A stretch of 64,000 nucleotides of DNA, taken from NCBI GenBank assembly GCA_001781435.1, contig MFLV01000011.1:11268-75267 (forward strand). The letters are read 5' to 3'. The number at the start of each line of letters is the position of its first letter. Within the stretch, counting starts at the first letter, position 1. Below the pieces are notes generated by a model. It saw only the letters and a list, made by a program, of their open reading frames with translations. It searched no databases and was not told where the DNA came from. This DNA is from Candidatus Kaiserbacteria bacterium RIFCSPLOWO2_01_FULL_51_21 (lineage in GTDB: Bacteria; Patescibacteriota; Minisyncoccia; Phycocordibacterales; 2-01-FULL-51-21). Shown here in pieces: positions 1,174 through 56,321 of the stretch. A program made the position numbers and the translations under genes.

Positions 1174-1318
1174 AAAAACCTTTATATTGTAACATTTTTG
1201 AAACCCGCCCAAAAAATCTACCCCAGCAAGAATTTTCGCCCCGGGTTTCCCATTTTCTTGATTTATTTTTTATATATGATATAATAAAAATTAGATTAGG
1301 CCATGGGAGGGCCGAACA

Positions 1319-1960
1319 ATGACTACCATTTCACAGCGAGTCGAAGACCCGCTGCTTGCGGTGTTGCTTCGTCTCTTTCCACACCCGACAGTCAAGGATG
1401 CAATGAACTGTCTGAAGATTGAACAGGTCCAAGATGCCGCGGTCAGGGTGGCAGAAAGAGCACGTCAGTTCGCCATCGACGAAGACGAAAGACGCCGAAC
1501 GAAAGGGGGGAAGGACCTCATCAACTATCGCGGATTTTACGTCGGCGCCGTTGGTATCGGGCTGATCTTAAGTCCCTGGCAAGGTCCCTATCCGTATACC
1601 TGGTTTGCTTTTGCCGCGTTTAACACCAAGCCTTCCAAAAAGGCTCGCAAATATTGCGCTGAAAAGCGACTCATGCGTGGCGCACGCAAGAACAGATGCA
1701 CGTGTTTGGGTGGTCTTGCGGTATCAGGAGAGCTACAGCCTGATGGCCGTAGTGGCATCCAGGGCTTGAATCTCGACCCCTGCGGGGCATGCCGGGATGA
1801 TGCGGCAGGTGAATACCGTTCGCTTTTCCGCAACGGCACCCTCCTCCTCACCGCTCAACCGGGTAGTCAGTTTCGGGAAGTGAAAACAATGTCGCAGCTC
1901 ATGGAGGCCCACGGCGAGAAATGGCCTCAACTGAGTAAGCATCGTGCGGGTCGTCCTTAG
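1319..1960 (+). CDS. CDA-fold zinc deaminase (cytidine/deoxycytidylate deaminase-like) with N- and C-terminal extensions
   Basis: Core ...FYVGAVGIGL...KYCAEKRLMRGA...(38 aa)...PCGACRD matches the C-A-E ... P-C-x-x-C zinc-ligand pattern of tetrameric cytidine deaminases. It has an ~70 aa N-terminal and ~45 aa C-terminal extension. Confidence 0.55.
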   Translation: MTTISQRVEDPLLAVLLRLFPHPTVKDAMNCLKIEQVQDAAVRVAERARQFAIDEDERRRTKGGKDLINYRGFYVGAVGIGLILSPWQGPYPYTWFAFAAFNTKPSKKARKYCAEKRLMRGARKNRCTCLGGLAVSGELQPDGRSGIQGLNLDPCGACRDDAAGEYRSLFRNGTLLLTAQPGSQFREVKTMSQLMEAHGEKWPQLSKHRAGRP

Positions 1961-2042
1961 AGAATGGAACTGGAACATCGGATGTTCTAGTTTACGAGGC
2001 ATCGTCTTGGTAATCTCTCAGTAAGAATATTCGCGTCAACCT

Positions 2043-2079
2043 GCGACCTCGAGTTATGCTCGAGGCGCATTTTTTTTAT
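2043..2079 (+). terminator. Rho-independent terminator after the deaminase gene
   Basis: Hairpin CCTCGAG-ttatg-CTCGAGG followed by TTTTTTTT. Confidence 0.5.
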
Positions 2080-2085
2080 AACTCC

Positions 2086-3795
2086 TCACATCCGCTCGGG
2101 GGTTTTGATGCCAAGGAGAAAAAGACCATTCATCATGGTTTGGTGAAATGCTTTGGTGAGTGCAAGTTTGTAGGGAGATTCGGGGGTATCGTCAATTATT
2201 TTTTCTTTTGCGTACCAGCTGTTGAACGTGCCGGCAAGCTCGGTGAGAAACGTGGCGACATAGTGCGGCTCGTATTCCCGCGCCGCGCGCTCAACAATTT
2301 CAGGAAAACGATATAAGAGTCGTTCAATTTCAATAACCTCTTTCGGCACACGCTCGACGTTATCCGCGCTTCCCGCTCTTCCAAGAATGGAGTGAGCACG
2401 CGTTGCCGCGTATTGAAGATAAGGACCACTGTCGCCCTCAAACGAAACAGATTTTTCAAAATCAAAAACGATATCGCTCCCCATTCCTTGCTTGAGAATG
2501 GAATACTTGATGGCGCCAATTGCGATTGCCTCGATAGTCTCCTGCTCCTTCCCCGTCGCCCGTTCGCTCATTTTCTCCTTCACTCTTTTTGAAACTTCAT
2601 CGATAAGCGACTCGGCAGTAACAATGTCACCAGTGCGCGAGGACATTTTCCCAGACGGGAGCCGCAGCATCCCATGCGGAATATGCACGATTTTTTCCGC
2701 GAGTTTCGCGTTAATGCGGCGAAGCGCGGCAAGAACTACCTTGAAGTACTCGACTATCTCATTGCCCGTGATGGAAACAAAAATGTCAGCCGGGTGACGC
2801 TCCTCTTTTAGAAACGCCAGACCGATTTCTTTTGCTTCATAGGTTGGCAGTCCTTCGGAATTCAGAAACACGCGGGTATGGAGTCCTTCTTTTCCCCCAC
2901 GAAAAACTATAGCCCCCTCACTTTGTTCAAAAACTTCTGGGTGTTCTTCGACAATTCTTTTTCCATATACTCCGCTATAAGATTCAAAATAATAATAATC
3001 AAATCCTGTTCCAGTTTTTTCATTAAATGTTCCCAGTTTTTTATAAATTTTTTCAAATTCCCTGAATGATTCGGCTTTCCCTTCAGAATAAAGTTCTAAT
3101 AAATCCTTTTTTTTACTACCTTTTCCATAGAGGCTTTCATATATTTCTTTATTAATTTCTCGAATTTCTTTTTTGGCTTCCTCCTCTTCTTCATATTTAG
3201 CAGCACCCCATCCGTAAGCCTCTCCCCATTTAACATTTGGTTTCTTCATTTTCCCCCAAAGCGCCTTTGCAACATGAAGCCCGACATCACCCTGATAGCT
3301 TGCCCGCTTCACTTCCGCGCCGGAAAACTCAATGAGCCGCGCAATAGATTCACCAATCGCATTACTCATAAGATGCCCAATGTGAAATTCCTTGAATGGG
3401 TTCGGGTCGGTGTATTCCACCATTACCTTCTTTCCAAGAAGCATCTTGTTCTTTCCCCACTCTTCCCCCGATTCGAGAATTTTCCTTACATTACCGGCAA
3501 AAAAATCCCTTGAGAGAAAAAAGTTGATGAAACCGGCCCCCGCCACGTCAACTTTTTCCACCTCCTCCAGCTGCTGTTGTACGATATATCGTACAACTTT
3601 CTCGGCAAGCTCCCGTGGATTGCCGCCCTGCGATTTCGCCAGTACTAGCGCAACATTGCTCGCATAATCTCCGTGCAAGATATCGGCCGGATGCTCCAGA
3701 TAAATGTCGGGGATGGAGAGACCGAGACTTTTGAGCGCCTCCATTATCGACTGCTTGATTTTCTCAACAATCATTGCGGCCATTGTAGCACGCAC
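2086..3795 (-). CDS. argS: Arginyl-tRNA synthetase
   Basis: EFHIGHL (HIGH motif) and an ArgRS-like anticodon-binding C-terminus. It contains a K/E-rich low-complexity insert (KYEEEEEAKKEIREINKEIYESLYGKGSKKKDLLELY). Confidence 0.9.
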   Translation of the reverse strand: MRATMAAMIVEKIKQSIMEALKSLGLSIPDIYLEHPADILHGDYASNVALVLAKSQGGNPRELAEKVVRYIVQQQLEEVEKVDVAGAGFINFFLSRDFFAGNVRKILESGEEWGKNKMLLGKKVMVEYTDPNPFKEFHIGHLMSNAIGESIARLIEFSGAEVKRASYQGDVGLHVAKALWGKMKKPNVKWGEAYGWGAAKYEEEEEAKKEIREINKEIYESLYGKGSKKKDLLELYSEGKAESFREFEKIYKKLGTFNEKTGTGFDYYYFESYSGVYGKRIVEEHPEVFEQSEGAIVFRGGKEGLHTRVFLNSEGLPTYEAKEIGLAFLKEERHPADIFVSITGNEIVEYFKVVLAALRRINAKLAEKIVHIPHGMLRLPSGKMSSRTGDIVTAESLIDEVSKRVKEKMSERATGKEQETIEAIAIGAIKYSILKQGMGSDIVFDFEKSVSFEGDSGPYLQYAATRAHSILGRAGSADNVERVPKEVIEIERLLYRFPEIVERAAREYEPHYVATFLTELAGTFNSWYAKEKIIDDTPESPYKLALTKAFHQTMMNGLFLLGIKTPERM

Positions 3796-7308: not shown

Positions 7309-7339
7309 ACTTGTGGGTTTATTGTCTTTAATATTCTAG

Positions 7340-7369
7340 CGTAATTCGTGATTCGTAATTCGTAATTCG
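7340..7369. repeat. Heptamer-periodic ATTCGTA/TACGAAT intergenic repeat, single arm
   Basis: gTAATTCGtgATTCGTAATTCGTAATTCGg, 7-nt period, between dcd and the CYTH gene. Confidence 0.6.
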
Positions 7370-7373
7370 GTTC

Positions 7374-8078
7374 TTATTGAACCACGAATATTTTGTCCGT
7401 GCCATAATACTCCGGCCAGTGACTATTGTAGTAGGCAAACATTCGCTCAAGCCGCTCCTGTGGAAGCTCCTCAACGCCGAGCTCGCGCATAAACCCCTCG
7501 AGGGATTGCTTCGCCAAAGGAATCTCCGCGGTGTCATCCACGACTTTCTCAAACTCCGCCAGGTAGCCATAACCGGCGTTTTTATCAAGGCAGACCGTCG
7601 CACTCTTATAAGAATACTCCTCCCGCTCCCGCGACCACTTCGCCTGATAGCGAAAGCCGGCGTCAAGGAGAAGCTGGTCAAGCTCTTCAATTCTCATGCC
7701 GGTGACTGGCGCTTCGAACTCAAGCCGCGAAATCGTATTGTGACTTGAACCTTCATCGAGTGACGCTTTCACAACAAAAAGAAGATTGCGGTCGTCAATA
7801 AGGCGGGTGCGAATTGAAAAATCTTTCCCTCGTTCCAACATATCCGAAAGTTTTTTTTGATCCTCCGGCGAGAATGTGTGTGCAAGTGTCGCGCGAAGTT
7901 TTGAGATATCACCACCGACAAAATAGTGGTTAAGCTGTTTGCTTCGAGTGTGGCAGATAGCGGAAGGATCGAGTGTTTGCATGTCTCTACGCAACTTCTC
8001 TGCGCGTTCGCGATTTCCAAGAAGCGATTTGATTTCGATTTCGCAGGATGGCATGTTCCCAATTATACGCTTCCCCAT
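7374..8078 (-). CDS. CYTH-domain protein (class IV adenylate cyclase / triphosphatase-like)
   Basis: N-terminal CEIEIKSLL (ExExK motif) and a C-terminal YLAEFEKVV segment. Confidence 0.5.
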   Translation of the reverse strand: MGKRIIGNMPSCEIEIKSLLGNRERAEKLRRDMQTLDPSAICHTRSKQLNHYFVGGDISKLRATLAHTFSPEDQKKLSDMLERGKDFSIRTRLIDDRNLLFVVKASLDEGSSHNTISRLEFEAPVTGMRIEELDQLLLDAGFRYQAKWSREREEYSYKSATVCLDKNAGYGYLAEFEKVVDDTAEIPLAKQSLEGFMRELGVEELPQERLERMFAYYNSHWPEYYGTDKIFVVQ

Positions 8079-10028: not shown

Positions 10029-10135
10029 GAAATTAACTTACAACTTACAACACACAACCTACAACAGAAGCAAACAAAACACAAATTAATTGCTTATCCC
10101 TGTTGTCAGTAGTAGGTTGTTGGTTGTGGGTCGAA
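10029..10135. repeat. CA-rich/GT-rich imperfect inverted repeat (long hairpin) between nusG and rplK
   Basis: acaacttacaacacacaacctacaaca ... tgttgtcagtagtaggttgttggttgtggg. Confidence 0.5.
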
Positions 10136-13947: not shown

Positions 13948-14022
13948 TGGGTGCCTACTGGGATTCGAACCCAGTCTGGCTCCTCCACAGGGAGCAGTGC
14001 TGACCATTACACCATAGGCACC
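13948..14022 (-). tRNA. tRNA-His (anticodon GUG), with encoded CCA
   Basis: Reverse complement GGTGCCTATGGTGTAATGGTCAGCACTGCTCCCTGTGGAGGAGCCAGACTGGGTTCGAATCCCAGTAGGCACCCA; anticodon loop CUGUGGA. Confidence 0.8.
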
Positions 14023-14068: not shown

Positions 14069-14155
14069 TGGTGCGCGGGAGAGGATTTGAACCTCCAAGC
14101 CCTTACGGGCACCACCACCTCAAGATGGCGTGTCTACCGATTTCACCACCCGCGC
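14069..14155 (-). tRNA. Type II tRNA with a long variable arm; anticodon read as GAG (Leu)
   Basis: Reverse complement GCGCGGGTGGTGAAATCGGTAGACACGCCATCTTGAGGTGGTG...GGAGGTTCAAATCCTCTCCCGCGCACCA. Confidence 0.65.
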
Positions 14156-14814
14156 GCATTTTTGTCAAGTTTAAGCGCTTTATATATCTTTTCCTTCTTC
14201 CGCGCTAGACAGACAGCGGTATCGCTATAATACATTTTTTTAATAATTTTCAAAGACTCTTTCTTAGCATACTTAAGCTGGTAGGTAGAACCTTTACCGT
14301 CCTTTGTAATATGCCCTATTACTTCTGACCTCACCCGGAGCGATTGCCGGATCCAATCAATAAAACTCTTACTTGCAGAAGCTAACTGTAAGTAGTACAT
14401 GAAACTTGAACGCCACCGTGGATCCCAATAAGAATAAAAAGATCCGTCACCGTCAAAACATCCGCGCAGAAAATCAAAAAAATACTGCTGAGGAACATCG
14501 ACTGCTCCAATGGTCTTTGACTTGGCAGGCGTTAATCCAATACCAAGTAGAAACTGATAAAACAAAATATCCCCGAATTGAACACGGAAGTAATCTCGTT
14601 TTTTATGTCCACTGGAGTGTTTGGCCAATTTAGAGTCAAGACCGAGACAATGTTTGAATGTTTTAAGCTGTTCAATGTCTTTTGACACAAGAACGATATG
14701 GTATCCATCAATTGAAAGACACCCATCGGTCGCAATAAGTCCAATTGCATAGGCAAATTCCGGCGACCATTTAATTTTTACTTTTCCCTTTGGCTTTACC
14801 CCTCTTGCTCCCAC
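14143..14814 (-). mobile_element. Free-standing LAGLIDADG homing endonuclease gene (two-motif, single-chain type); its 3' end overlaps tRNA-Leu by 13 nt
   Basis: Two LAGLIDADG motifs, YAIGLIATDGCL and FLRGCFDGDGSF. The gene is markedly more AT-rich than its flanks. Confidence 0.8.
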
Positions 14815-25827: not shown

Positions 25828-26406
25828 ATGATTGGCCAATTATCCGGAACCATCGCCCGCCATGCCGACGGATTCGTGATGCTTGATGTCGGCGGCGTCG
25901 GCTACAAAATACGGGTTACTGCCACCGTATACCAATCGCTTGCGCATGAGCGGGAACAAGTGACACTCTTCACCCACTTGGCAGTCCGAGAGAACGCTCT
26001 CGACCTGTATGGTTTCCAGGACATGCGAGAACTTCGTTTTTTTGAGCTCTTGATTTCCGTATCGGGTATCGGACCAAAGACGGCCATCGCGATCTTAAGC
26101 ATCGCCGACGTCGGCACTATTGTCGCGGCGGTAAGCGAAGGGAACAGCGCCTATCTCACCAAGGTCGCCGGCATCGGAAGAAAAATCGCCGAGAAAATCG
26201 TTCTCGAACTTCGAGATAAGTTGGGCGCTGTCGAGCCGGGCGAAGGAACCTTGGGAATTAAGGACGATGCTGATGTGCTTGAGGCGCTTCGCTCCCTCGG
26301 CTACCAGAGCGCCGAAGCGCGGGAGGCCCTCAAGCGCATACCGAAAGAAACGATGGGTGCGGGAGGCCGCTTGAAAGCGGCTCTTAAAACACTCAGTGCA
26401 AAATAG
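25828..26406 (+). CDS. ruvA: Holliday junction helicase subunit RuvA
   Basis: MIGQLSGTIA...LISVSGIGPKTAIAILS...LTKVAGIGRKIAEKIV. Confidence 0.9.
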   Translation: MIGQLSGTIARHADGFVMLDVGGVGYKIRVTATVYQSLAHEREQVTLFTHLAVRENALDLYGFQDMRELRFFELLISVSGIGPKTAIAILSIADVGTIVAAVSEGNSAYLTKVAGIGRKIAEKIVLELRDKLGAVEPGEGTLGIKDDADVLEALRSLGYQSAEAREALKRIPKETMGAGGRLKAALKTLSAK

Positions 26407-29109: not shown

Positions 29110-29487
29110 ATGATTCTCAATCCCTTCCCCGACCTTTTCTCTCTAAGTTTCTTCGCCCCCTTTCTTTTGCGGCTTATGCTCGGAGTATGGCTTCTCTCTT
29201 CGGCTTATCGGCATGTTCAGAGCCGACACGGCCTGGAAAACAGGCGGTTTTTTCTCTGGTGCACGGTACTCTCAAAAACGATTGTCGGAATTCTTCTCAT
29301 TGCCGGTCTTTGGACGCAAATTGCCGCGCTCCTCGCCGCCCTCATCGCACTTGAAGCACTCTTTGTTCGGAGACGCGTTCCTTTGCTCGCCGAAGAGAGT
29401 CCGTGGTTTTATCTCTTTATCCTCGCCATCTCCTTCTCCCTCCTCGTTCTCGGCGCCGGCGCGTTCGCTTTTGATGTGCCATTGTAG
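29110..29487 (+). CDS. DoxX-like membrane protein
   Basis: Four hydrophobic helices in 125 aa. Confidence 0.5.
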   Translation: MILNPFPDLFSLSFFAPFLLRLMLGVWLLSSAYRHVQSRHGLENRRFFLWCTVLSKTIVGILLIAGLWTQIAALLAALIALEALFVRRRVPLLAEESPWFYLFILAISFSLLVLGAGAFAFDVPL

Positions 29488-29582
29488 AACAAACAACTAA
29501 CAACTCACCACCAACAATAGAAAACCACTCAGTTGTGCGTGATTGGTTGTTTGTTGTATGTTGTGTGTTATAAGTTTACATA
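29488..29582. repeat. CA-rich/GT-rich imperfect inverted repeat upstream of tRNA-Lys
   Basis: acaaacaactaacaactcaccaccaacaa ... ttgtgcgtgattggttgtttgttgtatgttgtgtg. Confidence 0.5.
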
Positions 29583-29655
29583 CCGCCCATAGCTCAGTTG
29601 GTAGAGCGGCTCCCTTTTAAGGAGAAGGTCGCAGGTTCGAATCCTGCTGGGCGGA
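29583..29655 (+). tRNA. tRNA-Lys (anticodon UUU)
   Basis: CCGCCCATAGCTCAGTTGGTAGAGCGGCTCCCTTTTAAGGAGAAGGTCGCAGGTTCGAATCCTGCTGGGCGGA. Confidence 0.8.
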
Positions 29656-30547: not shown

Positions 30548-30600
30548 GATAGTGATTAGGTTTTAGTGATTAGTTTTAAAGCATTTCTGTAACCTACAAC
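30548..30600. repeat. Imperfect inverted repeat (TAGTGATTAG-type) between polA and holA
   Basis: tagtgattaggttttagtgattag ... ctactcactaatcactag. Confidence 0.45.
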
Positions 30601-33021
30601 CTACTCACTAATCACTAGCCTTTCCGCTTCCCCCCAATTCTTCCCCGCCGAGGCGGTAGCCGCAAACGGCACGCCCGCTGTTTCCGAAAGCGGCAAGATG
30701 CTTTCCATGATTTTTTTAATTTCCGGCACGAGTTTCTGAAGAAGTGCCGTGCGGACCTCATAGACAAGCTCATCGTGCACCTGAAGAAGAAGACGACAGT
30801 CGTTTTCGAGCTTTTCTTTTTGCAGATGCTCGTCGATTCGAATCATTGCGAGCTTGATGATATCAGCGGATGTCCCTTGGAGGGGAGCATTAATCGCCAT
30901 GCGCTCGGCAGAAGCGCGCACGTAGGGAATCGAGGAGCGGATACCCTCGAAATAGCGGCGTCTGCCGAAAAGAGTTTCGGTATAGCCGCGACGCGCTACC
31001 GCAGACTTTATTTTCTCGAGATACTCCGCAAGCCCGGAAAAATTTTTGAAATACTCATTGTAGTAGACTTGCGCTTCAGCGCGCGACGTGCCGAGGTTCG
31101 CCTTCAGCGCGTTTACGCCCATGCCATAGAGAATTCCAAAATTGATAACTTTGGCGCGGCGGCGCATTTCCCGATCCACCTGCTCTGGCGGCACCTTAAA
31201 AACCTCTGCCGCCACTGCCGCGTGGACATCGCCGCCGCTTCGAAAAATGCCGATGAGTTTGCTGTCGCCGCTCATAATTGCCGCAAGTCTGAGTTCTATC
31301 TGAGAATAATCAAGCGTAGCGATTGAAAACCCTTCGTCAGCGACAAAGGCGTTGCGAATTGCTCGTCCTAAGTCAGTACGAATGGGAATATTCTGGAGGT
31401 TCGGACTTGAGGAGGACATGCGCCCTGTCGTCGTCCCGCATTGCTCGAAATGCGCATGGAGTCGGCCACGCTCATCAACCATGAGCGGAATGTTGTCGAT
31501 GTAGGTTGAGAGTAATTTTTGGAGTTCCCGGTATTGTAAAATATCGCCGATAACCGGATGGAGGTTGCGGAGTTTCTCAAGCTCCGACTCGCGGGTTGAT
31601 TTTTGCCCGGTACTCGTTAACTTCTGATTTTTAGAAGCAAGCGCCAGTTTGTCAAAAAGCACCTCGCCAAGCTGGCGCGGGGAATTAATGTTGAAAGTCG
31701 CTCCTGCCTGCTCGTATATTTTCTTCTCGAGTTTCGCGAGTTCGCGATGGTACTTTTCTGAAAGCTCTCGGAGGTATCCGGTGTCAATTTTCACGCCCCG
31801 CGCTTGCATTTTTTCGATAATCGGCATAAGCGGCAGTTCGATCTCGCGGTAGACTCGCTCCAGGCCTTCCTTTTTGATAGCCAAGAGAAGCGCCTCCTCT
31901 GAAGCCTTAAACGAATGCTTTTTGGTGAAGTGAAGAATGTCTTCAAGCGACGGGTTCGTGGTATCGGAATGCAAGAGCCACAAGGCTATGCCCGCTCCTT
32001 TGAGTTCCCGCGGGTCAACCGCCTCTTCGAGAGCCTCCTTCTTCTCCGCTCGAGCAAGCGTTTCTCCGAAGAGCGCGCGCACGCGCACGGCGAGCGTCCG
32101 AAAACTCAAATCGGAAAAAAGTGCGAGAATAGCGCCGACATCAAGCGATTCCCGCCAGGTTTTTTTGGGAAGCGCAAAAATAATCGGTGCATCACGGCGA
32201 ATCTCCGCAAGCATCTTGCTAAAGAGCGCCTCCTCCTCCCCTTCTTTGAGTATCTCGATGATGCGCGGCGAGCAACCCACTTTTTCAAAATGCTTCGGGC
32301 CATACTTTAGCGCCTTATACATTTCTTCAATCGTGCCGAATTCCTTGATGAGCGTGCTCGCCGTTTTCTCACCGATTCCCTTAATGCCAATGATATTATC
32401 CGATGGGTCGCCGCGGAGCCCTTTGTAATCCGGAAGCGAGCGCGGCTTAAAGCCAAAGCGTTCCTTCACCGCCTTTTCATCGTAGAGAATGGTGTCATTG
32501 ATTCCTCTCCTCAGCGTATAGACGCGCACCTTCCTGTCGTCGACAAGCTGGAGTGTGTCCATGTCGCCGGAGGCAATAATGATGTCGGTGTTTTTATCTT
32601 TTTTTAATTTCTCGACAATAGTGCCGAGCATATCATCAGCCTCAAAACCCGGCGCTTCATAGATTTGAATATTGAACGCCTTAAAAATGTCGCGGGAGCG
32701 GTTGATTTGGGCCACCAAGTCGCCTTCAAGCTCGACTCGTTTTGCTTTATATCCCTCGTACGCTTCATGCCGATAGGTGGGACCGGGCAAATCGTAGCAC
32801 GCGGCAAGGTAATCGGGTTTCAAGTCATTAATGATCTTGAGAAGCATCGCTGAGAGTCCATAGAGAGCGCCGGTCGGCTCCCCCTTCGCCGAGGTGAACT
32901 GCGGAAGCGCGTGGTACGCGCGATGAATGATCGCATGCGCGTCAAGGAGCACCAATCGCTTTTTCATACCACCACCTTTCTTCGTTGATAACTTTTCTTT
33001 TGTTGCAACTTTTTTGACCAT
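30601..33021 (-). CDS. polA: DNA polymerase I (5'-3' exonuclease plus polymerase domains)
   Basis: N-terminal KKRLVLLDAHAIIHRAYHAL (FEN domain). C-terminal RRRAKVINFGILYGMG...LLQVHDELVYEV polymerase motifs. Confidence 0.9.
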   Translation of the reverse strand: MVKKVATKEKLSTKKGGGMKKRLVLLDAHAIIHRAYHALPQFTSAKGEPTGALYGLSAMLLKIINDLKPDYLAACYDLPGPTYRHEAYEGYKAKRVELEGDLVAQINRSRDIFKAFNIQIYEAPGFEADDMLGTIVEKLKKDKNTDIIIASGDMDTLQLVDDRKVRVYTLRRGINDTILYDEKAVKERFGFKPRSLPDYKGLRGDPSDNIIGIKGIGEKTASTLIKEFGTIEEMYKALKYGPKHFEKVGCSPRIIEILKEGEEEALFSKMLAEIRRDAPIIFALPKKTWRESLDVGAILALFSDLSFRTLAVRVRALFGETLARAEKKEALEEAVDPRELKGAGIALWLLHSDTTNPSLEDILHFTKKHSFKASEEALLLAIKKEGLERVYREIELPLMPIIEKMQARGVKIDTGYLRELSEKYHRELAKLEKKIYEQAGATFNINSPRQLGEVLFDKLALASKNQKLTSTGQKSTRESELEKLRNLHPVIGDILQYRELQKLLSTYIDNIPLMVDERGRLHAHFEQCGTTTGRMSSSSPNLQNIPIRTDLGRAIRNAFVADEGFSIATLDYSQIELRLAAIMSGDSKLIGIFRSGGDVHAAVAAEVFKVPPEQVDREMRRRAKVINFGILYGMGVNALKANLGTSRAEAQVYYNEYFKNFSGLAEYLEKIKSAVARRGYTETLFGRRRYFEGIRSSIPYVRASAERMAINAPLQGTSADIIKLAMIRIDEHLQKEKLENDCRLLLQVHDELVYEVRTALLQKLVPEIKKIMESILPLSETAGVPFAATASAGKNWGEAERLVISE

Positions 33022-33026
33022 GTTGC

Positions 33027-33110
33027 GTACGCGAATTACGAAGTACGAATTAAGAATTACGGAAATGCCTCAAGCTATTCGTACTTCTTACTTCGTAATT
33101 CATACTTCGA
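33027..33110. repeat. TACGAAT/ATTCGTA heptamer repeat, both arms (inverted), between tsaE and polA
   Basis: cgaattacgaagtacgaattaagaattacgg ... tattcgtacttcttacttcgtaattcatacttcg. Confidence 0.65.
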
Positions 33111-37706: not shown

Positions 37707-38236
37707 AAATCAATGTCGGCTCAAAAAACGAAGTGAAAGTCGAGGCCGTTCGGGAAATTCTTCAAGACTATCCGCACCTAGCGCTGGCGCAGGTTGAGGG
37801 ATTTGAGGCTGATTCAAAGGTATCAGCACAGCCGAGGTCGCTTGAAGAAACAATACAAGGAGCAATGGCCCGGGCACAAAATGTTTTCGTCAATTGCGAC
37901 TATGCGATTGGGCTCGAATCTGGCCTCATGCATGTTCCAAACAGCAAGAGCGGGTACATGGATGTGTGCGTGTGCTCTATTTATGATGGCAAAGAATTCC
38001 ATCTTGGGCTTTCCTCCGCATGGGAATTTCCCGATCCAGGAATCGTACGCCTCATGACTGAGGAGGGACTTGATATGTCTCAAGCAGTTGTCAAAGCTGG
38101 ACTCACAAAAAATACGAATATCGGAGCAGAAAACGGAGCAATCGGGATTATGACAAAAGGCAGGGTGGACAGGAAAGAATATACGAAACAGGCTCTTCGC
38201 ACCGCTCTCATTCATCTGGAAGAGTTTGATTGTTAA
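37703..38236 (+). CDS. Non-canonical purine NTP phosphatase (YjjX/DUF84-like)
   Basis: MKINVGSKNEVKVEAVREIL...IGLESGL. Confidence 0.6.
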   Translation: MKINVGSKNEVKVEAVREILQDYPHLALAQVEGFEADSKVSAQPRSLEETIQGAMARAQNVFVNCDYAIGLESGLMHVPNSKSGYMDVCVCSIYDGKEFHLGLSSAWEFPDPGIVRLMTEEGLDMSQAVVKAGLTKNTNIGAENGAIGIMTKGRVDRKEYTKQALRTALIHLEEFDC

Positions 38237-38621
38237 TTTTCGTTGCAGAATAATGATTCAATTCATACTTAATAGTCCTTATACTCTTGTGGGCTTAATT
38301 GTTGGAATAATTTCGCTACCAAAAAAGGTAAAGGCTGTGGAATCCCCGCGTGCGATAGTCTTGGAAGTAAAAAGCTTCTGGTGGACTTTCGGTTACTTCA
38401 AAAACGCGCGAGCCGTAACTATTGGCCATTGCGTCCTCCTATCACTCACCATAAGGCCAAGGGACTTGGAGCACGAACTTATTCATGTCTTGCAATTCGC
38501 GCGAGCACCAATAATTTATCCAGCATTGTATTATGTTGAACTCATACGCAAAGGATATAAAAACAATAAATACGAAGAAGAAGCGCATCGAATTGCCGGT
38601 AATGTATACAAGGAGAAATGA
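38226..38621 (+). CDS. Small AT-rich hypothetical protein with an HExxH motif (possible mini metallopeptidase)
   Basis: EHELIHVLQ. GC about 40%. Confidence 0.35.
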   Translation: MIVNFRCRIMIQFILNSPYTLVGLIVGIISLPKKVKAVESPRAIVLEVKSFWWTFGYFKNARAVTIGHCVLLSLTIRPRDLEHELIHVLQFARAPIIYPALYYVELIRKGYKNNKYEEEAHRIAGNVYKEK

Positions 38622-38660
38622 TTCGGCTAATTCATGCTTCCTGATTCATAATTCATTCCT

Positions 38661-49106: not shown

Positions 49107-49174
49107 TCCGGCTGTCGGTCGGTTGCTTGTCCCGAGCTTTGTCGAGGGTGATTATACCTTTCTAAAAGACTCGA

Positions 49175-49224
49175 GGTACGAATAGTTCTATTCGTAATTC
49201 TTAATTCGTGCTTCGCTATTCGCT
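49175..49224. repeat. TACGAAT/ATTCGTA heptamer repeat between convergent jag and the T4SS-like cluster
   Basis: ggtacgaatagttctattcgtaattcttaattcgtgcttcgctattcgc. Confidence 0.6.
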
Positions 49225-53852: not shown

Positions 53853-53855
53853 AGA

Positions 53856-53960
53856 ATTAGAAGTACGAATAACGAATAACGAATAACGAACAGATGCTTG
53901 GAGCGATTCTTAACTTGGCTTGTTTTTTTTCGTAATTCATACTTCGTAATTCGTACTTCA
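53856..53960. repeat. TACGAAT/ATTCGTA heptamer repeat, both arms (inverted) around a T-run, upstream of virB4
   Basis: gaagtacgaataacgaataacgaataacgaa ... tgtttttttt ... ttcgtaattcatacttcgtaattcgtacttc. Confidence 0.65.
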
Positions 53961-54611
53961 TTGAGCCTCCGGGAGGCTCAAGGGCCGTTCCAGTTCGCCG
54001 GGATTAAAAATTTTGTAATAGAGCTCGATAATTTCTTCCGTCCCAAGAACGACACTGCGAATACCACAACGCGTGAGTCCCTGCTCGACAATTGAGGCGC
54101 GCTGTTCAAGCTGGGTGCGGTGTTCCTCGAATGCGGCACTTTCGTCTGCCGCGGCTGTTTTTGACGGCTTTCCAAAAGGCAAAAGGTTTCCGAGCCCCCC
54201 TTTTTTAACGGAAATGAGCGGCGGCGTATAGGGAACGATAACAAAGAAACTCTTCGACATAATGTTCGCCTCTTCAGTAAAGGCTTTTATAAAGTCGATG
54301 TATTCCCGCACCTGGATTTTCATGAGGTCGCTCCCCTGGGCGCGATGCCGCTCTTCGAGGAGCGCGATATAGGGGCGGATGTCGAGTTCCCGCGACTGGA
54401 TGAAAATTTGAATGGAAAACTCGAGCGAGTTAAGAAAGTTCTGAAACTGCAGAAGTATGGCGGATTGCTCGTCCTGGGATTTAAGCGCGAAGTTTAAAGA
54501 AGAGGTCATCAACATCATCCGCAGTCCCCCGTCTTTGAGCACCACGACGCCGTCTCGCACCTCGCGAATCGGAACGAATTCCTGGGTTGTGTTTGTTTTG
54601 GCAGTAGCCAT
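53958..54611 (-). CDS. Hypothetical protein (T4SS-like cluster)
   Basis: ORF only. Confidence 0.4.
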   Translation of the reverse strand: MATAKTNTTQEFVPIREVRDGVVVLKDGGLRMMLMTSSLNFALKSQDEQSAILLQFQNFLNSLEFSIQIFIQSRELDIRPYIALLEERHRAQGSDLMKIQVREYIDFIKAFTEEANIMSKSFFVIVPYTPPLISVKKGGLGNLLPFGKPSKTAAADESAAFEEHRTQLEQRASIVEQGLTRCGIRSVVLGTEEIIELYYKIFNPGELERPLSLPEAQ

Positions 54612-54612
54612 G

Positions 54613-54644
54613 AAGTACGAATAACGAGTTACGAATTACGAATA
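54613..54644. repeat. TACGAAT heptamer repeat, single arm
   Basis: gaagtacgaataacgagttacgaattacgaat. Confidence 0.6.
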
Positions 54645-55027
54645 GGAAAAAAGGTGCGGGACTTTTTAATTAAACCATTACAGATTTTACTTACTACCGT
54701 TGTTTGATTTTCAATGGCCAGATACTCTGCTTCTAAAAGGTATCCAATATCTTTTGCAATGAGTAATTGATTTTGTACTTCAGTAAGAGAACCGAGCGCC
54801 ACGGCGTAAAATTGGGTTTTCTCTTTATAAGAAGAGCGGCTGAATCCTTCCGCAAGGTTTGAAGTAATAGAAACAACAGCTCGACGTAACTGGCTCGTTA
54901 ATCCAAACTGCTCTTCTTTGGGAAAGTTTTTTGTAATTTTGTAAACCATAATAACGAGACGATGCCCCTCTCGCCATACGCGAAGGTCTTTAAACGATTC
55001 TATTTTTTGCTCCTTCTCGTAATTCAT
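54629..55027 (-). CDS. Four-helix-bundle protein (23S rRNA intervening-sequence protein family)
   Basis: LRVWREGHRLVIMVYKITKNFPKEEQFGLTSQLRRAVVSITSNLAEGFSRSS...LGSLTEVQNQLLIAKDIGYL is typical of this family. Confidence 0.7.
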   Translation of the reverse strand: MNYEKEQKIESFKDLRVWREGHRLVIMVYKITKNFPKEEQFGLTSQLRRAVVSITSNLAEGFSRSSYKEKTQFYAVALGSLTEVQNQLLIAKDIGYLLEAEYLAIENQTTVVSKICNGLIKKSRTFFPIRNS

Positions 55028-55060
55028 TTTCGTAATTCTTAATTCGTTCTTCGTAATTCG
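55028..55060. repeat. ATTCGTA heptamer repeat, single arm
   Basis: tttcgtaattcttaattcgttcttcgtaattcg. Confidence 0.6.
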
Positions 55061-55479
55061 TTTTCCTTCGTTCCCGCGTACATGCTTTCCTGAATATCGA
55101 GGCTCCAGGAAAGGTCTTTCAACTTATTCTGCGAAAGCCGCGGTATCGAAAGGAGGGGGGGAATGTTTTTTTCTTGGCCGGCTTTTTGGGGAAGCGTCTT
55201 TTGTTCATGTTTCCAGAGATATAATTTTTTTGAAAAAGCGTAGTAAAATGCCGCTTCAAGCGCATAGATGAACGGACGATTGTTTATTTTATAAAAGGCA
55301 AGGGCGGCGCCGAAAAGAATAATCGGAGCTCCAAGGAGAAGGGCAAGATAGAGTCCGAGGAAGGTGTAGAGGATTACCACAAAACCGCCTGCGCCGGCGA
55401 GGTAGACAAACTGCCGGAATGTTAACGGTCCGATGATTTTATCTTCAATCTCAATAAATTGTGGTACTTGGAATTGCAT
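55039..55479 (-). CDS. Small two-TM membrane protein (VirB3/PrgI-like candidate)
   Basis: FVYLAGAGGFVVILYTFLGLYLALLLGAPIILFGAALAF. Confidence 0.4.
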   Translation of the reverse strand: MQFQVPQFIEIEDKIIGPLTFRQFVYLAGAGGFVVILYTFLGLYLALLLGAPIILFGAALAFYKINNRPFIYALEAAFYYAFSKKLYLWKHEQKTLPQKAGQEKNIPPLLSIPRLSQNKLKDLSWSLDIQESMYAGTKENELRRTN

Positions 55480-55485
55480 ATTGGT

Positions 55486-55590
55486 CAGAAGTACGAAGTA
55501 CGAGTTACGAAGTACGAGTGAAGAAAGAATCGGATGTTTTTTTGAGGTTTCATTTTTATTCGTAATTCGTACTTCTTAATTCGCTATTCG
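55486..55590. repeat. TACGAAT/ATTCGTA heptamer repeat, both arms (inverted) around a T-run
   Basis: cagaagtacgaagtacgagttacgaagtacgagtgaag ... tgtttttttgaggtttcatttttattcgtaattcgtacttcttaattcgctattcg. Confidence 0.65.
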
Positions 55591-56321
55591 ATAGGTTCTT
55601 TGTACGGGTCCACGGTATATGTTTGGGGTTGCTTTGGCTTCTGCGCGGTCTCCATTGCCTGATTCCCTATTCCTGATTCCTGCTTCACTTGGACATTCTC
55701 TCTCGGTAATCGAAACATTTCCAGTAGCTTCGTTTCGGCAATCGTACCGGTCGGCAAATTCGCCGGCACCTCCGCTTTTTTCTGTTCAATTCGTAATTCT
55801 GGTACCTGCGGTTCTGCTGCGGTGGACAGTTCTTCAATCTCCCGGAGTAATTTTTTTCGCTCGATAGTTAGTTCGGGCGGCACTTCGGGTATTTTTGATA
55901 TTTGAGGAATATCCTTTGTGCGCCCAAGCGCTCCAACGGTTGTCTGCGGCGCGAAGACCTCCGGCGCGTTCGCAAGCTCTTGTTCAGCATCCACTTTTGC
56001 ATCTTCCTCAAACATACGACGCAGGGCCTCCCGAATAGGCAAGAAGATTTCCTCATTAACGCTTCCCGTGATAAGTTGCGCTTGCGCGGGCGGAATGTCG
56101 AGCTCACGAGTGAGAGTCTTTGTGAAATCATTTGGTGATTCAAGCCCGAGCATGACGAAGAGCGTTTCGTTCTCAAGTGCCCCCGCCTGGTCAACGTGGA
56201 GCTGATACTTTTTAGCAATGTTTTGGAGCCGCGGTCGCAGGTCGACCGCATTAATGGCATCTTTTATTTCTTTTGGAACCTGCGCGAGTCGTTCTTTTAT
56301 GAGCTGTTGTGTTTCATCCAT
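55584..56321 (-). CDS. Hypothetical protein (T4SS-like cluster)
   Basis: ORF only; charged, P/E-rich C-terminal half. Confidence 0.4.
   Translation of the reverse strand: MDETQQLIKERLAQVPKEIKDAINAVDLRPRLQNIAKKYQLHVDQAGALENETLFVMLGLESPNDFTKTLTRELDIPPAQAQLITGSVNEEIFLPIREALRRMFEEDAKVDAEQELANAPEVFAPQTTVGALGRTKDIPQISKIPEVPPELTIERKKLLREIEELSTAAEPQVPELRIEQKKAEVPANLPTGTIAETKLLEMFRLPRENVQVKQESGIGNQAMETAQKPKQPQTYTVDPYKEPIE

What the first reader, a model, noticed from the sequence alone, without database searches (positions are those of the whole stretch)
53856..55590. Heptamer-periodic TACGAAT/ATTCGTA inverted-repeat family occupying many intergenic spacers, densest inside the T4SS-like cluster
Tandem 7-nt units (TAATTCG, AATAACG, AAGTACG variants) form one or two arms of imperfect inverted repeats at eight or more loci: 7340-7369, 21771-21804, 33027-33110, 49175-49224, 53856-53960, 54613-54644, 55028-55060 and 55486-55590. 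Two-arm copies surround a T-run, for example 53905-53928. Several lie within 0-10 nt of a start codon and replace any Shine-Dalgarno sequence; upstream of the gene at 21772 the sequence runs gaattacgaagtacgaattaagaattacgaATG. Between 53856 and 55590 they bracket three consecutive small genes. This looks like a genome-specific REP/MITE-like or regulatory-iteron family. The 7-bp phasing and strict intergenic placement suggest a protein-binding or RNA-structural role in operon punctuation.
Basis: seen in the sequence. Interest (0 to 1): 0.6.

Follow-up and report, generated by a model that had tools for sequence, protein, structure and literature searches.

The report
Heptamer-armed stem-loop elements between genes
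The 7-base repeat arrays are real: they are the paired arms of stem-loop elements wedged between genes of a Candidatus Kaiserbacteria genome, built like the "intervening sequences" known from ribosomal RNA genes, and this may link several unexplained 7-base repeat families in bacteria.

Summary
Period-7 arrays occur at all eight listed sites and at about eleven more, far above chance, and they sit at gene boundaries.

The arrays form the two arms of stem-loop elements. One complete element (54610-55062) encloses a 132-aa four-helix-bundle gene of the family first found inside 23S rRNA intervening sequences (PF05635/TIGR02436, "IVP/S23p"). Three others are ORF-less hairpins, and the rest are single arms.

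- **Across ~80 candidate-phyla-radiation (CPR) species:** homologous IVP genes carry period-7 arrays upstream in 68 of 90 cases and downstream in 67 of 90. The unit sequence differs between lineages, but the two arms stay complementary.
- **Outside CPR:** the same layout appears in cyanobacteria, Riemerella, Xanthomonas (accB-IVP-accC with GGGAATC arms) and an Azospirillum 23S rRNA gene. It is also described for the Coxiella IVS.
- **Insertion polymorphism:** in the type IV secretion (T4SS-like) operon, relatives have 1-nt spacers, array-only spacers or full cassettes at the same junctions. A near-identical strain differs by one 7-nt unit.

The likely function is inferred, not shown: an IVS-like duplex cut by RNase III that punctuates operon transcripts. 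Whether it acts as RNA or DNA, and how it moves, remain unresolved. I rate it a new variant of a known kind.

The parts
55027..55062 (-). 5' arm of the complete cassette. Sense strand reads AACGAATTACGAAGAACGAATTAAGAATTACGAAA ATG. It supplies the PrgI stop codon and abuts the IVP start codon.
54629..55027 (-). IVP gene: 132-aa four-helix-bundle protein (PF05635 23S_rRNA_IVP, TIGR02436; distant Avd relative). Basic, pI about 9.5.
54610..54651 (-). 3' arm of the complete cassette. It contains the IVP stop codon and ends at the ATG of the TraC-like gene. It pairs with 55027-55062 in the minimum-energy and centroid folds.
55482..55593 (-). ORF-less two-arm hairpin in the p245|PrgI spacer (arms 55548-55593 and 55482-55519). 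Relatives have a 1-nt spacer or a full IVP cassette at this junction.
53854..53963 (-). ORF-less two-arm hairpin in the TraC-like|VirB4 spacer (arms 53926-53963 and 53854-53897). It is at the same junction as, and has arms similar to, the L007 IVP cassette. One heptamer unit is missing in strain L005.
33029..33110 (-). ORF-less two-arm hairpin in the TsaE|PolA spacer (arms 33074-33110 and 33029-33065).
21768..21813 (-). Single arm between RuvX and a tRNA-binding-domain gene. It supplies the RuvX stop and abuts the next ATG. It shares a 29-nt identical run with the reverse complement of 33037-33065.
7335..7375 (-). Single arm between the CYTH-domain gene and dcd.
49170..49224 (.). Short palindrome (TACGAATAG/CTATTCGTA) plus a five-unit array, in a spacer between convergent genes.
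38628..38658 (+). Degenerate single arm (TAATTCA units) directly upstream of yebC.
10031..10133 (-). Two-arm hairpin of a second heptamer family (ACAACNN/GTTGTNN) filling the nusG|rplK spacer.
29484..29577 (+). Two-arm hairpin of the ACAACNN family, directly upstream of a tRNA gene (29583-29655). The fold is weak (z -1.3).
30587..30620 (-). Single heptamer array (CCTACAA/CACTAAT units) overlapping the polA stop codon.
25786..25833 (+). Single array of a third family (GACTAAA/GACTATA) ending at the ruvA ATG.
55655..55689 (-). GGAATCA-type array inside the C-terminal coding part of the 245-aa gene. The L007 orthologue lacks this stretch.

Best explanation
The TACGAAT/ATTCGTA arrays are the two arms of stem-loop elements of the same kind as the ORF-bearing intervening sequences (IVS) of 23S rRNA. 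Here they sit in the stop-to-start spacers of protein-coding operons of a Candidatus Kaiserbacteria (CPR) genome.

**Forms present.**
- The full form is [about five heptamers]-ATG...four-helix-bundle IVP gene...stop-[the same heptamers, reverse-complemented]. One copy lies at 54610-55062.
- ORF-less forms are 80-110-nt hairpins at 53854-53963, 55482-55593 and 33029-33110.
- Single arms are presumably decayed copies.

**Behaviour, shown.** The elements are insertions relative to empty junctions in relatives. Their position differs between related species. Arrays change length by 7-nt steps.

**Behaviour, inferred.** Full elements are always in sense orientation and lack their own promoter space, so they are co-transcribed with the host operon. 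In that RNA the arms form a duplex of about 27-35 bp with scattered mismatches. By analogy with the homologous rRNA IVS, RNase III cuts this duplex. That would split the polycistronic RNA and release the IVP message, making the element tolerable almost anywhere that is transcribed but not translated.

**Open.** How the elements spread, and what the IVP protein does, are unknown. Movement between same-family hairpins by recombination across the arms is my guess.
For: **In the window.**
- The arrays are real, period-7-specific and at gene boundaries.
- The arms of the IVP gene pair in the minimum-energy and centroid folds. They form a 27-bp closing helix around the whole ORF.
- Solo hairpins fold well beyond shuffled controls.

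**Across CPR species (loci).**
- Of 90 IVP genes from about 80 species, 68 have a period-7 array upstream, 67 downstream and 51 both. Every other period from 4 to 11 gives 0-3.
- Unit sequences differ by lineage (GAATTAA, GTATTTC, CGCATAA, GGGTATA and others), yet each gene's own arms stay complementary.
  - Best 21-nt window: 18 matches for own pairs, 14 for mismatched pairs.
  - Duplex energy: -30.3 against -18.8 kcal/mol, p 2e-18.
- 62 of 71 cassettes are co-oriented with both neighbouring ORFs and none is opposite to both. The median distance from the upstream stop to the IVP ATG is 35 nt.
- In 604 kb of CPR loci there are 280 period-7 arrays against 3-17 at other periods. Of these, 153 adjoin IVP-family ORFs and 127 are solo.
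- Solo arrays match the local cassette's unit family in 22% of cases, against 2.6% for cassettes from other loci.

**Insertion polymorphism.**
- Each of the three junctions p245|PrgI|TraC-like|VirB4 is, in different species, 1-7 nt long, array-only or a full cassette.
- Window versus L007 shows exact stop-to-start insertions.
- L050 carries five IVP-family ORFs in one T4SS operon, one of them truncated.
- Strain L005 differs from the window over 4 kb by one mismatch and one 7-nt unit.

**Outside CPR.**
- Inverted arrays of about 7 nt flank IVP genes on plasmids of Nostoc, Geminocystis, Stanieria and Riemerella.
- The same holds in Xanthomonas, between accB and accC, with GGGAATC arms.
- The same holds inside an Azospirillum 23S rRNA gene.

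**Literature.** The Coxiella IVS has a 28-bp terminal stem. It has GACAGAT heptamer repeats before the S23p ATG, with strain-variable copy number. Its mapped RNase III 5' processing site lies at the first repeat; cleavage by Coxiella RNase III was shown in vitro (PMC4990558).
Against: - No RNA data exist for this organism, so RNase III cutting is inferred only by homology of architecture.
- Arm pairing shows no sense/antisense asymmetry: 42 against 41 cassettes, with similar G-U counts. Selection on the sense RNA is therefore not demonstrated. A DNA-level structure, or simple common origin of the arms, fits equally well.
- The loops of the solo hairpins show no significant similarity to IVP genes. 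It is therefore undecided whether ORF-less forms derive from full ones or are landing sites for them.
- An 18-mer of the 5' arm that includes the 'ATG' occurs in 38 metagenome contigs, and only one of them carries an IVP ORF.
- The ACAACNN and GACTAAA families in the window were not found next to any IVP gene in my sample.
- The 80 CPR loci were chosen by similarity to this window's IVP, so they sample one subfamily.
- No RNase III gene lies in the parts of the window I scanned.
Confidence: 0.6

Rival explanations
1. The arrays are plain heptanucleotide microsatellites. They arise and grow by replication slippage in non-coding DNA, have no structure-based role, and their link with IVP genes is incidental.
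For: - A unit-number difference separates near-identical strains.
- Heptanucleotide repeats are reported as the commonest long simple repeats in prokaryotes, with slippage proposed as the cause (Mrazek 2007, as summarised in PMC4679880).
- Solo arrays are common.
Against: - Slippage does not create a reverse-complement partner 30-400 nt away.
- Own arms are complementary well beyond mismatched pairs.
- 153 of 280 arrays adjoin an IVP-family ORF.
- The same multi-unit order recurs at distant loci: 29 nt are identical between 21774-21802 and 33037-33065.
- Arrays fill exact stop-to-start insertions.
Confidence: 0.08
2. The arrays are protein-binding sites. The pentameric, basic IVP protein, or another factor, binds about five 7-nt units on single-stranded RNA or DNA, wrapping them as TRAP wraps its RNA. 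This would control its own expression and that of neighbouring genes, or mark sites for cassette movement.
For: - Arms have a median of about 36 nt, or 5.1 units, with a mode of 5.
- Both solved relatives are deposited with five chains.
- The proteins have pI 8.9-9.8.
- Arms and ORF travel together with lineage-specific units.
- Solo arrays often share the local cassette's unit family.
- The family is a distant relative of the DGR accessory protein Avd: the bAvd Pfam model and the NCBIfam Avd model both match below their cut-offs, and the homology is stated in PMC10053308.
Against: - No binding data exist.
- Unit number ranges from 3 to 9, and reaches 13 in Pseudanabaena.
- Many arrays belong to families with no matching IVP in view.
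- Coxiella S23p appears not to be made in vivo (PMC4990558).
- This rival is compatible with the best explanation rather than exclusive of it.
Confidence: 0.15
3. The elements are DNA-level mobile elements of the MITE or REP kind. An enzyme encoded elsewhere moves them, recognising the arms as hairpins or cruciforms in DNA. The RNA structure would be a by-product.
For: - They have inverted arms, a dispersed family and between-species insertion polymorphism.
- Pairing shows no sense/antisense asymmetry.
Against: - No target-site duplication appears at the two junctions compared.
- No transposase, integrase or RAYT-like gene was found among the window ORFs scanned.
- Strict sense orientation of the ORF-bearing form (62:0) and placement inside rRNA helices point to constraints acting on transcripts.
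Confidence: 0.12
4. The arrays are translation leaders for an SD-less organism. They would be unstructured repeats that recruit ribosomes (for example through protein S1) or set up stop-restart coupling, as proposed for the TAACTGA repeats of Beggiatoaceae.
For: - Arrays end 0-10 nt before several start codons.
- The genome almost lacks SD motifs.
- The three solo hairpins carry 17-34-codon mini-ORFs. Two of them start on an ATGA overlap with the upstream stop. Two end 4-5 nt before the next ATG.
- 5' arms hold stops in all three frames in 45% of cases, against 25% in shuffles.
Against: - Both the purine-rich and the pyrimidine-rich arm are found directly before start codons.
- Most genes have no array.
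- Arrays also occur between convergent genes and before a tRNA.
- Bridging ORFs are not general in array-bearing spacers.
- 3' arms show no stop enrichment.
Confidence: 0.05

Closest known systems
ORF-bearing intervening sequences (IVS) of 23S rRNA: Leptospira, Coxiella burnetii (S23p), and here Azospirillum lipoferum
   Same: - The same protein family is carried (PF05635).
- The terminal arms form a long stem around the ORF.
- Tandem heptamers lie directly before the ATG, with strain-variable copy number (Coxiella, PMC4990558).
- In the Azospirillum rRNA copy both arms are heptamer arrays.
- ORF-less short versions also exist, as in the IVS of Salmonella and Yersinia.
   Different: - The window's copies are not in rRNA. 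They sit between protein-coding genes, supply stop codons to upstream genes and abut downstream start codons.
- Many copies occur per genome.
- RNase III excision has not been shown here.
Genome-specific intergenic heptanucleotide repeat families: Xanthomonas GGGAATC and Nostoc GGGGA(C/T)T (PMC4692102), cyanobacterial STRR, Beggiatoaceae TAACTGA (PMC4679880)
   Same: - Units are 7 nt, usually in 3-6 copies.
- Placement is intergenic, often next to start codons.
- Length polymorphism occurs.
- In Xanthomonas there are about 70 inverted pairs per genome.
- I found that Xanthomonas GGGAATC arms flank an IVP gene between accB and accC.
   Different: - Those papers proposed G-quadruplexes or translational regulators and did not connect the repeats with the four-helix-bundle gene.
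- TAACTGA repeats are almost all direct and in one orientation.
- The unit here is AT-rich and cannot form G4.
MITEs and REP/BIME elements
   Same: They are short, dispersed, extragenic inverted-repeat elements that fold into hairpins. ORF-less forms occur alongside an ORF-bearing form.
   Different: - The arms are tandem 7-mers rather than unique terminal repeats.
- No target-site duplication is seen.
- The carried protein is a small helical bundle, not a known transposase.
- No RAYT was seen.
DGR accessory protein Avd
   Same: Distant homology of the carried protein. The bAvd and DivGenRetAVD models match below their cut-offs. The fold is a basic pentameric four-helix bundle.
   Different: There is no reverse transcriptase, template repeat or variable repeat nearby. 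The protein scores far better on the IVP and TIGR02436 models.

Membership tests
ORF-bearing rRNA-type intervening sequence (IVS) | Carries a PF05635 (S23p/IVP) open reading frame | tested here: met
   For 54629-55027: PF05635 E 8e-37, above the cut-off, and TIGR02436 E 9e-35. The solo hairpins carry no such ORF.
ORF-bearing rRNA-type intervening sequence (IVS) | Complementary termini form a long stem enclosing the ORF | tested here: met
   A 27-bp closing helix appears in the minimum-energy and centroid folds of 54600-55075. Own-arm complementarity holds across 83 cassettes.
ORF-bearing rRNA-type intervening sequence (IVS) | Tandem heptamers before the ORF start, with variable copy number (described for Coxiella) | tested here: met
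   Arrays abut the ATG. A one-unit difference separates strains at the 53866-53890 array.
ORF-bearing rRNA-type intervening sequence (IVS) | Located inside a 23S rRNA helix (9, 25 or 45) | tested here: not met
   The window has no rRNA. The element lies between PrgI and a TraC-like gene.
ORF-bearing rRNA-type intervening sequence (IVS) | Excised from the transcript by RNase III without religation | not testable with these tools
   No transcript data are available. No RNase III gene was found among the window ORFs scanned.
Intergenic heptanucleotide simple-repeat families (LSSR/STRR type) | Head-to-tail 7-nt units, at least 3 copies, one unit family at many loci | tested here: met
   Period 7 with 3.7-6.6 copies at more than 10 loci.
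Intergenic heptanucleotide simple-repeat families (LSSR/STRR type) | Enrichment outside coding sequence | tested here: met
   4 of 19 array midpoints fall in ORFs, against 85% coding; p 7e-10.
Intergenic heptanucleotide simple-repeat families (LSSR/STRR type) | Unit-number polymorphism between strains | tested here: met
   L005 lacks one TTCGTTA unit. Two other arrays were invariant among the strains retrieved.
MITE | Target-site duplication flanking the insertion | tested here: not met
   Filled and empty junctions (window versus L007) show none.
MITE | Derived from an autonomous element that encodes a transposase | tested here: inconclusive
   The full form encodes only a four-helix-bundle protein with no known catalytic role. 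The loops of the ORF-less forms show no remnant of it.
REP/BIME | Associated RAYT (IS200/IS605-like) transposase in the genome | not tested
   Only this 64-kb window was available. None was seen among the scanned ORFs.
Iterons of a replication origin | Direct repeats of about 17-22 bp next to a rep gene or origin | tested here: not met
   Units are 7 nt, arrays are dispersed through housekeeping operons, and no rep gene is present.
Intrinsic terminators | GC-rich stem followed by a U-run | tested here: not met
   No terminator-like site falls at any array, and the count is below shuffles. The stems are AT-rich and the T/A-run lies in the loop.
Any curated Rfam family | Match at the gathering threshold | tested here: not met
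   Only eight tRNAs were found in the window.

The most novel reading that the evidence does not exclude
The four-helix-bundle IVP gene and its heptamer-array arms form one pan-bacterial mobile 'punctuation cassette'. It can live in any transcribed but untranslated spot, whether an rRNA helix tip or an operon spacer.

On this reading, the pentameric protein recognises about five 7-nt units of its own arms. The cassettes and their ORF-less offspring would then be the source of much of the unexplained excess of heptanucleotide repeats in prokaryotic genomes. That would include Xanthomonas GGGAATC, cyanobacterial STRR and GGGGATT, and possibly Beggiatoa TAACTGA.
Probability: 0.25. Interest if true: 0.85.

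Novelty: new variant of a known kind. Interest (0 to 1): 0.68.

Why it matters
- **rRNA intervening sequences.** They have been treated as an oddity of ribosomal genes. If the same element populates operon spacers throughout the CPR and beyond, it is a general and very old passenger of bacterial transcripts. Its rRNA copies would be only the first ones noticed.
- **PF05635/TIGR02436.** This is a very large family of unknown function. The link would give it a concrete, testable context.
- **Heptanucleotide repeats.** The link offers a single explanation for several orphan heptamer repeat families, and for the long-noted excess of 7-nt repeats in prokaryotes.
- **CPR biology.** It would point to RNase III-type processing as a way of shaping expression inside long, SD-less, tightly packed operons such as the T4SS-like cluster.
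- **Annotation.** These arrays supply stop codons and alter the ends of neighbouring ORFs, so gene callers mis-extend genes across them, as in L005.

Tried and rejected
1. **ORF remnants in solo hairpin loops.** Local alignment to three IVP genes scored no better than shuffles. The appealing shared 'ATGAATTACGAA' is a common array variant found in 38 metagenome contigs, only one of which has an IVP ORF. I therefore dropped the claim that solo hairpins are proven deletion derivatives.
2. **Sense versus antisense pairing, to separate RNA from DNA.** There was no difference.
3. **'7 is not a multiple of 3, so arrays give stops in all frames'.** Enrichment is only modest for 5' arms (45% against 25%) and absent for 3' arms.
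4. **Bridging mini-ORFs as a general rule.** They are present in the three family-A hairpins but not general, and not significant.
5. **Periodic mismatches every 7 nt as a hallmark.** They are clear in the window's hairpins but give only a faint lag-7 signal across 83 cassettes.
6. **Terminator or promoter role.** Not supported.
7. **Known RNA family.** No Rfam match.
8. **Strain-level variation at two other arrays.** None was found.
9. **ACAACNN and GACTAAA families next to IVP genes elsewhere.** Not found in my sample.
10. **The 131-aa ORF at 38226-38621 as a decayed IVP.** It has no Pfam match and carries an HExxH-like motif, so I rejected it.
11. **RNase III gene in the window.** Not found among the ORFs scanned.
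12. **Literature link.** Searches for a published link between four-helix-bundle genes and heptamer repeats returned only the Coxiella description.
Full report

Yes. Tandem Repeats Finder reports period-7 arrays at all eight listed loci.

- TACGAAT occurs 25 times against 7.0 +/- 2.7 in dinucleotide-preserving shuffles.
- A lag scan finds strongly self-similar 21-nt windows only at lag 7: 20 positions, against none at any lag from 4 to 12.
- At a looser threshold there are 20 period-7 regions against 0-7 at other periods.

The same scan reveals further heptamer families. ACAACNN lies at 10031-10133, 29484-29577 and 30587-30620. GACTAAA lies at 25786-25833. GGAATCA lies at 55655-55689.

Where two arrays face each other they fold into long imperfect hairpins, well beyond shuffled controls. 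In the window these often show six pairs followed by one mismatch.

Arrays sit at gene boundaries. Only 4 of 19 midpoints fall in ORFs, although at least 85% of the window is coding (p 7e-10). The overlap is mostly terminal codons that run into an array.

**2. Context**

The window is chromosomal DNA of a Candidatus Kaiserbacteria bacterium, a member of the CPR/Patescibacteria. It is seen in many independent assemblies.

It carries housekeeping genes: argS, glyA, thyA, polA, ruvABX, nusG-rplK, a class-Ib (Trp/Tyr-type) aminoacyl-tRNA synthetase and a PBP. It also carries a Gram-positive-type T4SS-like operon with VirB6/TrbL, PrgI, a TraC-like protein and a VirB4-like ATPase.

Only 3 of 61 called genes have a strong SD-like motif. 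The arrays therefore do not 'replace' an SD that other genes possess.

**3. The key finding in the window**

One of the three small genes bracketed by arrays, 54629-55027, is a four-helix-bundle protein. It belongs to the family named after 23S rRNA intervening sequences (PF05635, E 8e-37; TIGR02436). It is a distant relative of the DGR protein Avd, and its closest solved structure is XCC0516 (PDB 2GSC).

- Its upstream array (55027-55062) and downstream array (54610-54651) are reverse complements.
- In the predicted fold of the whole 476-nt unit they form a 27-bp closing helix around the ORF.
- The PrgI stop codon lies in the 5' arm, and the IVP ATG follows that arm.
- The IVP stop lies in the 3' arm, and the next gene's ATG follows immediately.

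**4. Is that a coincidence?**

No. I fetched 80 loci from named genomes that encode relatives of this protein. All are CPR lineages or bins labelled otherwise.

- Of 90 distinct genes, 68 have a period-7 array upstream, 67 downstream and 51 both. No other period from 4 to 11 exceeds 3.
- The unit differs between lineages (GAATTAA, GAATCAG, GTATTTC, GTAGCAA, CGCATAA, GGGTATA and others), but each gene's two arms match each other.
  - Best 21-nt window: 18 matches for own pairs against 14 for mismatched pairs.
  - Duplex energy: -30.3 against -18.8 kcal/mol, p 2e-18.
- Arms are typically about 36 nt, or five units.
- Cassettes are co-oriented with both flanking ORFs in 62 of 71 cases and never opposed to both. 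The median distance from the upstream stop is 35 nt, so they have no room for a promoter of their own.
- In 604 kb of these loci there are 280 period-7 arrays against 3-17 at other periods. 153 adjoin IVP-family ORFs and 127 are solo.
- Solo arrays share the unit family of the local cassette in 22% of cases, against 2.6% for cassettes from other loci.

**5. Insertion polymorphism**

The T4SS operon is conserved across many of these species, but the IVP cassette sits at different junctions.

| Locus | Arrangement |
|---|---|
| Window | PrgI-[IVP]-TraC-like |
| L007 (IVP 77% identical) | TraC-like-[IVP]-VirB4 |
| L010 | [IVP]-PrgI |

Across 15 species, each of the three junctions can be 1-7 nt long, a short array-bearing spacer or a full cassette. 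L083 has cassettes on both sides of PrgI. L050 has five IVP-family ORFs in one operon, each with its own unit type, and one of them is truncated.

Both of the window's ORF-less hairpins in this operon lie at junctions where relatives carry a full cassette. The hairpin at 53854-53963 shares both arms with the L007 cassette at the same junction.

Compared with L007's 1-nt spacers, the window's elements are exact stop-to-start insertions. They replace the last residues of PrgI, and no target-site duplication is visible.

Within the population, strain L005 differs from the window over 4 kb by one substitution and the loss of one TTCGTTA unit.

**6. Beyond the CPR**

IVP genes on plasmids show the same plan.

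| Organism | Context | Arms |
|---|---|---|
| Nostoc, Geminocystis | plasmid | GGGAAAA / TTTTCCC |
| Stanieria | plasmid | inverted period-7 arrays |
| Riemerella | plasmid | GGTTTAA / TTAAACC |
| Picosynechococcus | between cas10 and cmr3 | period 8 |
| Pseudanabaena | between cas6 and cas4 | long direct GCTAAAA / GCCAAAA arrays |

The Azospirillum lipoferum copy lies inside a 23S rRNA gene, about 160 nt downstream of a probe for 23S position ~1090. That is roughly where helix 45 lies, on my own knowledge of 23S numbering. It is therefore a genuine rRNA IVS, with GAGGACG-type heptamer arms on both sides.

In Xanthomonas, the XCC0516-family gene sits between accB and accC. It is flanked by GGGAATCGGGAGTGGAGAATCGGGAATCGG and CCCATTCCCCATTCCCGACTCCCTATTCCC.

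**7. What is already known**

- **Coxiella burnetii IVS.** It carries an S23p ORF of the same family. A 28-bp terminal stem borders it. Coxiella RNase III cleaves it in vitro, and its true ends were mapped by RACE within that stem. Tandem GACAGAT heptamers lie before the ATG, their number varies between strains, and the RNase III 5' site lies at the first repeat (PMC4990558).
- **CPR rRNA insertions.** Some encode 23S_rRNA_IVP (PMC11270868).
- **Xanthomonas and Nostoc.** GGGAATC repeats (about 186 arrays, about 70 inverted pairs) and GGGGA(C/T)T repeats were described as G-quadruplex candidates. No mention was made of this gene family (PMC4692102).
- **Beggiatoaceae.** TAACTGA repeats before start codons were proposed to be translational signals (PMC4679880).

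My searches of the held library found no paper that connects heptamer arrays in general with the four-helix-bundle gene, or that describes such cassettes in operon spacers. The library is incomplete, so this is absence of evidence only.

**8. How it most likely works**

Shown:
- The arrays are arms of stem-loop elements that exist with and without an IVP ORF.
- They are insertions at stop-to-start junctions.
- ORF-bearing copies are always in sense orientation.
- Arms keep their complementarity while unit sequences diverge.
- Arrays change by 7-nt steps.

Inferred:
- The elements are co-transcribed with their host operons.
- The arms pair in the RNA.
- As in the homologous rRNA IVS, RNase III cuts the duplex. 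That separates the flanking cistrons and releases the IVP message. This would explain why the element is tolerated in rRNA helix tips and between genes alike.

Not resolved:
- **RNA versus DNA.** Pairing is equally good on both strands.
- **Direction of descent.** I cannot tell whether ORF-less forms descend from full ones, because the loops retain no detectable ORF remnant.
- **Means of spread.** Recombination across same-family arms is my guess.
- **Role of the protein.** It is basic (pI about 9.5). Both solved relatives are deposited with five chains, and arms average five units. This makes a 'one unit per subunit' binding model attractive, but it is untested.

**9. Verdict**

The elements work like rRNA intervening sequences and share three of that family's defining features. 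They fail the 'located in 23S rRNA' criterion, so I call them a new variant of a known kind.

They also belong descriptively to the intergenic heptanucleotide-repeat families, for which they suggest an origin. Interest is moderately high because the link between a huge orphan protein family, rRNA IVS elements and orphan heptamer repeats is directly testable.

Noticed in passing
L158-L161 (Xanthomonas chromosomes), gene at 1501-1830/1881: A four-helix-bundle gene of the XCC0516/2GSC family sits between accB and accC. It is flanked by the GGGAATC heptamer inverted pair that was published as a G-quadruplex candidate, without any link to this gene.
   Followed up: partly
L099 1501-1863 (Azospirillum lipoferum plasmid AZO_p2): The IVP homologue lies inside a 23S rRNA gene (Rfam LSU match 301-3363), about 160 nt downstream of a probe for 23S position ~1090. 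It has GAGGACG-type heptamer arms on both sides. The record carries no annotation there.
   Followed up: partly
L050 1860-7761: Five IVP-family ORFs lie in a single T4SS operon, one in each spacer and each with its own repeat unit. The copy after VirB4 is truncated.
   Followed up: partly
L094 and L095 (cyanobacterial plasmids): Four-helix-bundle genes are inserted inside CRISPR-Cas operons, between cas10 and cmr3 and between cas6 and cas4. This may explain reported statistical 'associations' of this family with CRISPR modules.
   Followed up: no
window 53857-53961, 55485-55553, 33050-33103; L005 2004-2130: Each ORF-less hairpin holds a 17-34-codon mini-ORF. Two start on an ATGA overlap with the upstream stop, and two end 4-5 nt before the next ATG. 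In strain L005 the loss of one heptamer puts the mini-ORF in frame with VirB4, and the gene caller reports 657 aa instead of 623.
   Followed up: partly
whole window: Shine-Dalgarno-like motifs are almost absent upstream of called genes (3 of 61). Many neighbouring genes are separated by 1-15 nt, which suggests translation by stop-restart coupling.
   Followed up: partly
window 14143-14814 (-): A LAGLIDADG-like ORF lies directly beside two tRNA genes (13950-14021 and 14072-14155). It may be a homing-endonuclease remnant.
   Followed up: no
window 23693-24187: A tandem repeat of 126-129 nt (about 3-3.6 copies, 78-82% identity) lies inside the 491-aa ORF at 23405-24880.
   Followed up: no
window 29484-29655: A heptamer hairpin of the ACAACNN family ends 6 nt before a tRNA gene, so these elements also sit next to non-coding RNA genes.
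   Followed up: no
window 53961-53981: A GC-rich perfect palindrome (TGAGCCTCC-GGGAGGCTCA) lies at the very end of the TraC-like ORF, directly before the hairpin's 5' arm.
   Followed up: no
L002 1-239: The first 239 nt of this contig do not match the window, although the rest is identical. The break falls inside the 245-aa gene. It is either an assembly chimera or a strain rearrangement.
   Followed up: no
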